From Zootoca vivipara (Eukaryota): DNA of 64,000 nucleotides. The stretch spans positions 38,502,001-38,566,000 of the forward strand of contig NC_083288.1 of assembly GCF_963506605.1 (NCBI RefSeq), written 5' to 3'. A model generated the notes under the pieces. The model was not told where the DNA came from, searched no databases, and worked only from the letters and a program-made list of their open reading frames with translations. This document shows, in pieces, positions 12,083 through 24,925 of the stretch; positions within the stretch are counted from its first letter, which is position 1, and every line of letters starts with the position of its first letter. The position numbers and the translations under genes are program-made.

Positions 12083-24925
<12,843 letters not shown>

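What the first reader, a model, noticed from the sequence alone, without database searches (positions are those of the whole stretch)
12951..12962. Non-canonical G4 motif NKCE (Asp to Glu) in the RAB35 paralogue
Seen: GGT AAC AAA TGC GAG GAC = GNKCED, where RAB35 has GNKNDD, so the Asp equivalent to D123 is Glu. Established: the NKxD Asp contacts the guanine base in Ras-family GTPases, and changes there alter nucleotide affinity or specificity. Inference: the paralogue may be fast-cycling or less GEF-dependent. G1, G3 (DTAGQ) and G5 (ETSAK) are intact.
Basis: partly seen in the sequence, partly recalled or inferred. Interest (0 to 1): 0.7.

Follow-up and report, generated by a model that had tools for sequence, protein, structure and literature searches.

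The report
RAB35's twin repeatedly swaps guanine-reading aspartate
This lizard gene is an old, expressed second copy of the membrane-traffic switch RAB35 whose guanine-gripping aspartate is a glutamate, a swap shared by reptiles, sharks, sturgeons, salamanders and medaka that likely leaves it a nearly normal switch with at most slightly looser nucleotide binding.

Summary
Codons 12962-12951 (minus strand) read NKCE in a spliced, expressed, 202-aa RAB35 paralogue (NCBI 'RAB35-like'); the genome's own RAB35 has NKND. It is no error or private variant: 82 of 203 paralogue rows with a G4 motif have Glu, the rest Asp, none anything else; 0 of 136 RAB35-type rows have Glu. Glu marks reptiles, cartilaginous fishes, sturgeons, salamanders and medaka: at least five changes on the species tree. 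The fast-cycling reading is only partly supported. In Ras scans the same swap (D119E) is the mildest of 19 substitutions (0.24 kcal/mol), wild-type-like with GEF and GAP, and mildly activating without GEF. Both switches are almost unchanged. Most likely a tolerated acid-for-acid swap in a DENND1-type Rab35, with perhaps modestly faster exchange; no kinetics were measured. The paper searches found nothing on this paralogue, and this scan had not noted it on other DNA.

The parts
12951..12962 (-). G4 motif N121-K122-C123-E124 of the RAB35 paralogue; the Glu codon is 12953-12951, the Cys codon 12956-12954
   Evidence: unchanged in reads and contigs
24871..24925 (-). coding exon 1 (start codon, first half of the G1 P-loop)
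   Evidence: joint 16441/24870
16392..16442 (-). coding exon 2 (rest of G1, start of switch I)
14969..15092 (-). coding exon 3 (G2 Thr41, interswitch, G3 at 15009-14995, switch II)
14556..14680 (-). coding exon 4 (paralogue-diagnostic Asn81 where RAB35 has Gly80)
12843..12967 (-). coding exon 5 (G4, and G5 at 12878-12864)
12083..12211 (-). coding part of exon 6 (basic tail, terminal Cys-Cys prenylation motif, stop)
10862..12082 (-). 3' UTR; many molecules begin at 10866 in two runs, with an ATTAAA signal at 10888-10883 (likely poly(A) site)
   Evidence: tables 2, 6, 8; sequence
49659..49805 (-). exon of the neighbouring coiled-coil gene (BICD-like cargo adaptor; name recalled), whose paralogue lies about 60 kb from RAB35 on C17

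Best explanation
The gene is an intact, expressed ancient duplicate of RAB35 with Glu in place of the G4 Asp, and the Glu likely still grips the guanine ring, so the protein is predicted to be a GTP/GDP switch run by the usual RAB35 regulators with at most modestly faster spontaneous exchange. Shown: gene, splicing, the Glu, its spread, the single paralogue clade, near-identical switches. Inferred: origin in a vertebrate genome duplication; a carboxylate is required at this site but its length is loosely constrained in this paralogue, so Asp and Glu have exchanged at least five times; the longer side chain is absorbed by the adjoining loop (residues 123-127), which varies in this paralogue. 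Untested: nucleotide off-rates, DENND1 response, any role of Cys123.
For: Only Asp or Glu occur at the site in 203 of 203 paralogue rows with a G4 motif (82 E, 121 D, with P0262 corrected to D), while N121, K122, F34, T41, all of G3 and S151-K153 never change in 50 species rows. Minimum 5 changes at the site, against 9, 9 and 10 at the surface D/E sites 132, 141 and 175; no residue co-varies with Glu. KRAS D119E folding ddG 0.24 kcal/mol, the lowest of 19 (next Gly 0.50, Asn 0.80, Ala 1.32; median of the other 18 1.12), RAF1-binding ddG 0.02 (PMC10866706 Table S5). H-Ras D119E with GAP and GEF -0.03, against Ala -0.53, Gly -0.39, Cys -0.15 (PMC5538825 supplement). G domain 137 of 161 identical to the genome's RAB35; of residues 5-50 and 58-92 only 81 and 87 differ. 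EngA GD1 carries a natural NKxE, in cyanobacteria NKCE (PMC10448771). Best fold matches are the RAB35 structures.
Against: H-Ras D119E is above wild type with GAP but no GEF (+0.15, rank 12 of 113 in its row; K117E +0.24, L120E +0.51), so some loosening is likely. With Asp outgroups the five changes read most simply as five gains of Glu and no reversal, and none of 50 reptile-type rows has Asp while sites 132 and 141 show Asp in 10 and 7 rows: Glu may be favoured or entrenched rather than neutral. The Ras scans measure abundance, binding or growth, not off-rates, and RAB35-family proteins have Asp-Pro, not Leu, after G4, so Ras is an imperfect proxy. The model has no nucleotide and gives no side-chain contacts.
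Confidence: 0.62

Rival explanations
1. Selected fast cycling: the paralogue has repeatedly been tuned to exchange nucleotide by itself and to depend less on DENND1, and Glu is one of several routes to that (ray-finned fishes changed the P-loop residue equivalent to Ras Gly13).
For: Five changes most simply read as gains, one clearly nested among Asp teleosts (Oryzias); H-Ras D119E mildly activating without GEF; Asp119 changes raise intrinsic release in Ras (PMC8916776 passages); all 17 ray-finned rows have Asn or Asp at residue 19; no reversal in 50 reptile-type rows.
Against: 121 of 203 paralogue rows keep Asp; frogs, caecilians, lungfish and coelacanth have neither change. The effect in Ras is small. 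Zero changes in the 12-species reptile tree against 3, 3 and 1 at free sites is weak (chance about 0.1 if the mean is 2.3; my estimate). RAB35's lack of Glu is partly its slower rate overall (46 against 285 changes at positions 36-170; about 0.8 changes expected).
Confidence: 0.22
2. Slow decay: a redundant duplicate under relaxed selection has let its nucleotide pocket deteriorate, on the way to the loss seen (apparently) in birds, crocodilians and mammals.
For: The paralogue evolves faster than RAB35; no bird, crocodilian or mammal paralogue among the listed hits; coding-exon read depth is low in three RNA runs.
Against: Lizard, snake and turtle proteins are 96-99% identical to the window's protein; every other G-box core residue is invariant; only acidic residues ever occupy the site; the gene has persisted in most jawed-vertebrate lineages.
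Confidence: 0.07
3. Rewired pocket: the next residue (Asp125) takes over guanine reading, or the Cys-Glu pair of reptiles makes a redox-sensitive or base-promiscuous pocket.
For: RAB35-family G4 is followed by a second Asp; Cys123 sits at the position of the redox-sensitive Ras cysteine, and NKCE mediates a redox response in cyanobacterial EngA (PMC10448771).
Against: Asp125 is His in 2 viper rows that keep Glu124 and Asn in 5 Asp124 rows, so it is not essential; the alignment has no gap; Glu occurs with Asn or Ser at 123 in four of the five lineages, so it does not need the Cys.
Confidence: 0.08
4. Assembly error, wrong frame or private variant.
For: None found.
Against: Reads, contigs of other samples and another organism agree; the identical protein is in databases; 82 orthologous rows have Glu.
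Confidence: 0.01

Closest known systems
RAB35 (Rab1-related endocytic-recycling Rab; PDB 3TW8, 6EKK, 6IF2, 6IF3; GEFs DENND1A-C, GAPs TBC1D10A-C and others per PMC5902221 Table 1)
   Same: Six coding exons with the same internal lengths and phases, 137 of 161 G-domain residues identical, G1-G3 and G5 intact, switches nearly identical, basic tail with Cys-Cys.
   Different: Separate clade (100/98); Glu for the G4 Asp, Cys for the preceding Asn, Asn81 for Gly80, a different helix after G4 and a different tail; not found among bird, crocodilian or mammal hits.
Database 'ras-related protein Rab-35-like' of reptiles, amphibians and fishes (UniRef label Si:dkey-16l2.16 in fishes)
   Same: It is this gene: identical to P0039 (XP_028560832.1 and others); same clade as the fish proteins.
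   Different: Only automatic names; searches returned no paper that, by listing, describes the paralogue or its G4.
EngA/Der first GTPase domain (G4 NKxE; NKCE in cyanobacteria and chloroplasts)
   Same: A natural TRAFAC GTPase domain with Glu at the guanine-reading site, in cyanobacteria with the same four letters (PMC10448771 passages).
   Different: Bacterial ribosome-assembly GTPase, unrelated role; convergent, not inherited.
Engineered Ras D119 mutants (D119N, D119A, D119E)
   Same: Same structural position.
   Different: D119N switches specificity to xanthine (PMC7952092 passage) and D119A destabilises H-Ras by about 25 kJ/mol (PMC8916776); D119E is far milder in three scans.

Membership tests
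Rab GTPases (Ras superfamily, Pfam PF00071) | Ras-family G domain above the curated cut-off | tested here: met
   201 bits against 21.6, E 1.2e-59; fold matches Rab structures
Rab GTPases (Ras superfamily, Pfam PF00071) | G1, G2, G3 and G5 motifs | tested here: met
Rab GTPases (Ras superfamily, Pfam PF00071) | G4 written strictly as NKxD (PMC6767298, PMC5902221 passages) | tested here: not met
   NKCE. This is the variant itself; 121 of 203 orthologous rows do have NKxD and the wider consensus NKx[D/E] (PMC10448771) is met
Rab GTPases (Ras superfamily, Pfam PF00071) | C-terminal cysteines for prenylation | tested here: met
   ends in Cys-Cys; prenylation itself not tested
Rab GTPases (Ras superfamily, Pfam PF00071) | Binds guanine nucleotides specifically and cycles under GEF and GAP control | not testable with these tools
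   needs biochemistry
RAB35 subfamily (wide sense, including invertebrate Rab35) | RAB35 is the closest known protein, well ahead of Rab1 | tested here: met
   334 bits against 223 for Rab1B
RAB35 subfamily (wide sense, including invertebrate Rab35) | Activated by DENND1, binds RAB35 effectors | not testable with these tools
   switch regions conserved; the interface papers were not held
RAB35 orthologues proper | Groups with vertebrate RAB35 and is the RAB35 locus | tested here: not met
   separate clade; the true RAB35 is on C17
Ohnologue from a vertebrate genome duplication | Both copies in cartilaginous and bony vertebrates, on different chromosomes, with paralogous neighbours | tested here: met
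   both copies in Scyliorhinus, Polyodon, teleosts, reptiles; one paralogous neighbour
Ohnologue from a vertebrate genome duplication | Extended double-conserved synteny with a pre-duplication outgroup | not tested
   only one neighbour pair examined; the lamprey rows' place is weak (87/71)
Fast-cycling (GEF-independent) small GTPases | Intrinsic nucleotide release far above that of canonical relatives | not testable with these tools
   only proxy data from Ras: small effect

The most novel reading that the evidence does not exclude
Jawed vertebrates outside mammals and birds keep a second, unstudied RAB35 that has been tuned again and again into a self-loading switch: five lineages independently put Glu at the guanine-reading site and ray-finned fishes altered the Ras-Gly13 position, giving a natural fast-cycling Rab35 that is active with little DENND1, in reptiles perhaps redox-tuned through the adjacent Cys.
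Probability: 0.22. Interest if true: 0.65.

Novelty: new variant of a known kind. Interest (0 to 1): 0.36.

Why it matters
The G4 Asp is treated as near-invariant in Ras-family GTPases. Here a near-identical pair in one genome (RAB35 with Asp, its twin with Glu), plus five natural replicates of the swap, gives a clean test of how much the Asp's exact geometry matters and why Glu is otherwise rare. Practically, fish, frog and reptile work on Rab35 has a further close paralogue with the same switch surfaces that could mask knockouts and that databases often label simply 'Rab-35'. If the swap proves silent, it is a footnote on motif tolerance.

Tried and rejected
Wrong frame or splice artefact: rejected. 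Compensating substitution tied to Glu: none among positions 10-170 in 50 rows; the partial associations listed follow lineage. Asp125 as stand-in: rejected as required, see rivals. Literature on D119E or NKxE: one search gave 7 unrelated papers, one search gave 2 (one useful), one search gave 1 (SpoIVA; its passages test no Asp-to-Glu change). Papers on the paralogue: searches gave none by listing; the Rab35 passages of the Rab evolution survey PMC3425129 do not mention it; most subscription journals are not searched. The Gsp1/Ran scan text names no G4 Asp result and its supplements are closed; the per-variant data of PMC8916776 are not among its held files; either could bear on the size of the effect. 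The RAB35-DENND1B structure paper, a RAB35-effector paper and an early Ras-119 paper were not held. The AlphaFold model (mean pLDDT 79.8, switch I below 50) says nothing on guanine contacts. No complex was predicted: it would pass by likeness to 3TW8. The run search listed no holder on record as RNA; the raw RNA runs it added were laid instead. Earlier scan findings: two unrelated notes, then none.

Full report
1. Observation. Bases 12962-12951 on the minus strand encode N-K-C-E. They lie in exon 5 of a six-exon gene (24925-24871, 16442-16392, 15092-14969, 14680-14556, 12967-12843, 12211-12083), all introns GT-AG, giving a 202-residue protein with N121 and E124. That protein is identical to database protein P0039, named 'Rab-35-like' in lacertid lizards. 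A search of the own genome with exon 5 gave 2 matches among 27 candidates: this locus and one on C17, which is canonical RAB35 with N-K-N-D-D, as in the three PDB RAB35 sequences. The alignment has no gap there, so E124 is D123.

2. Not an error. In three raw RNA runs (about 6% of each read) and one contig set, all five introns are skipped as predicted: intron 5 in 16 reads, intron 4 in 11, intron 3 in 17, intron 2 in 13, intron 1 in 2, and all five in one contig of X2. At the G4 codons no other letter is listed in about 10 reads of X21 or in contigs of X2, X17 and X8, the last from another organism. Coding-exon depth is low; these data show expression, not its level.

3. What the gene is. Against the genome's RAB35 it has the same exon plan and 137 of 161 identical G-domain residues; between residues 5 and 92 the only differences are 51, 52, 57, 81 and 87, so P-loop, switch I and nearly all of switch II are the same. 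In a 62-row tree (6 of 68 rows dropped for mispredicted ends or cores) the 49 paralogue rows form one group (100/98), apart from 7 RAB35 rows, and include sharks, rays, chimaera, bichirs, sturgeons, gar, bowfin, teleosts, coelacanth, lungfish, all three amphibian orders, turtles, lizards and snakes. An exon of the neighbouring coiled-coil gene (49805-49659) has a 51%-identical match about 60 kb from RAB35 on C17, and a third match on C19; the name BICD-like (BICDL2/BICDL1) is recalled, Pfam gave only a sub-threshold HAP1_N hit. Origin in an early vertebrate genome duplication is therefore inferred, on one neighbour pair. No bird, crocodilian or mammal paralogue appeared among listed hits, but only 15 of the 43 members of the main reptile cluster were listed and two searches showed 120 of 288 and 120 of 548 hits, so loss is likely, not shown.

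4. Spread of the Glu. Of 367 stored homologues, 14 lack a readable G4 and 14 could not be classed by the switch II signature. Of 203 paralogue rows 82 have Glu and 121 Asp; of 136 RAB35-type rows all have Asp (one row scored 'other' was a false motif match and has Asp). Rows include isoforms and repeats of a species. Glu is found in reptiles (with Cys before it), salamanders, sturgeon and paddlefish, all cartilaginous fishes seen, and Oryzias; Asp in frogs, caecilians, lungfish, coelacanth, gar, bowfin, bichirs and the other teleosts. On a species tree written from established knowledge, with 50 hand-picked rows (about one per genus), the site needs 5 changes; with RAB35 and lamprey as outgroups the root is Asp, while the paralogue alone costs 5 with either root. 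The medaka case is a clear gain. The site changes about half as often as the free D/E sites 132, 141 and 175 (9, 9, 10), never to a non-acidic residue, and N121, K122, F34, T41, G3 and S151-K153 do not change at all. No position co-varies with it. RAB35 shows no change, but its 12 rows hold only 46 changes against 285, so that contrast alone is weak.

5. What the swap likely does. The G4 Asp makes two hydrogen bonds to the guanine base, and Asn there switches Ras to xanthine (PMC7952092, passages); D119A destabilises H-Ras by about 25 kJ/mol and Asp119 changes raise intrinsic release (PMC8916776, passages). For Glu specifically I found per-variant data. KRAS D119E costs 0.24 kcal/mol in folding, the least of 19 substitutions (median of the rest 1.12), and 0.02 in RAF1 binding (PMC10866706, supplement Table S5 rows only). 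In H-Ras with GAP and GEF it scores -0.03, against -0.53 (Ala), -0.39 (Gly) and -0.15 (Cys); these were read by counting columns between wild-type zeros (PMC5538825 supplement). With GAP and no GEF, the setting that reveals faster exchange (passages), it scores +0.15: rank 12 of 113 in its row, median -0.20, below K117E (0.24) and L120E (0.51). In a KRAS gain-of-function screen it is +0.22, sixth of 19, against 1.44 for His; I did not see that screen's threshold (PMC11526993, supplement rows). So in Ras the swap is nearly silent with a small push towards self-loading. Natural precedent exists in EngA's first GTPase domain, NKxE in bacteria and NKCE in cyanobacteria (PMC10448771, passages). An AlphaFold model from 31 rows matches the RAB35 structures best (TM 0.89-0.90 by target) but has no nucleotide.

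6. Mechanism. Shown: an intact, conserved, expressed RAB35 twin with an acidic-only, two-state G4 site. Inferred (0.62): Glu keeps the carboxylate-guanine contact, the variable loop beside it takes up the extra length, DENND1-type GEFs and TBC1D10-type GAPs (named for RAB35 in PMC5902221 Table 1) still act through the unchanged switches, and exchange is at most a few-fold faster. The main rival (0.22) is selected fast cycling, helped by the one-way look of the changes, the lack of reversal in reptiles and the P-loop change in ray-finned fishes; against it, several tetrapod and lobe-finned lineages have neither change and the Ras effect is small. Decay (0.07), a rewired or redox pocket (0.08) and artefact (0.01) fit worse.

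7. Novelty and score. The gene is in databases under automatic names; searches of the open library returned nothing, by listing, on it or on a natural NKxE Rab, and the Rab35 passages of PMC3425129 do not mention it. Subscription journals are largely unsearched. It is a new variant of a known kind: a real and mildly surprising repeated exception to a textbook motif, with an easy test, but the best proxy data predict a small effect. Interest 0.36.

Noticed in passing
orthologues in ray-finned fishes, residue 19 of the window protein (codon split between exons 1 and 2): All 17 ray-finned paralogue rows have Asn or Asp where RAB35 and the window protein have Gly, at the P-loop position equivalent to Ras Gly13; sturgeons and medaka carry this and the G4 Glu together. 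Medaka also change the residue after G5 to Ala.
   Followed up: partly
window 12956-12954 (-): Reptiles alone put Cys before the Glu, at the position of the redox-sensitive cysteine of Ras (PMC10448771 passage); RAB35 has Asn.
   Followed up: partly
window exon 4, residue 81: Gly-to-Asn at the end of switch II marks every paralogue row and no RAB35 row; it is the best candidate for a fixed difference in partner choice, more diagnostic than the G4 Glu.
   Followed up: partly
protein P0033 (unnamed ENA fragment, 112 aa): A divergent, non-vertebrate-looking Rab35 fragment also reads NKCE; single sequence, unverified, a possible further origin.
   Followed up: no
window 9602-9739 (+): Exon matching Pfam HPIP (HCFC1R1 family, 32 bits against cut-off 22.1); the gene faces the RAB35 paralogue tail to tail.
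   Followed up: no
window 5079-5276 (-) and nearby: WD40-repeat exons (weak Pfam hit); THOC6 by recall.
   Followed up: no
window about 33560-49900 (-): Exons of a BICD-like coiled-coil gene (name recalled), in tandem with the paralogue, whereas the C17 pair is convergent; a third related exon lies at G000:C19:29916424-29916555. A 130-base N stretch lies at 33426-33555.
   Followed up: partly
   Followed up: no
window introns, e.g. 14360-14500, 19230-19390, 20360-20500, 21720-21850, 22990-23260: Many copies of short interspersed repeats; they draw most reads and are not signal from this gene.
   Followed up: no
frog orthologues (P0094 cluster): The frog paralogue keeps the G4 Asp but sits on a long branch (0.24) with changes near switch I and in helix 5.
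   Followed up: no
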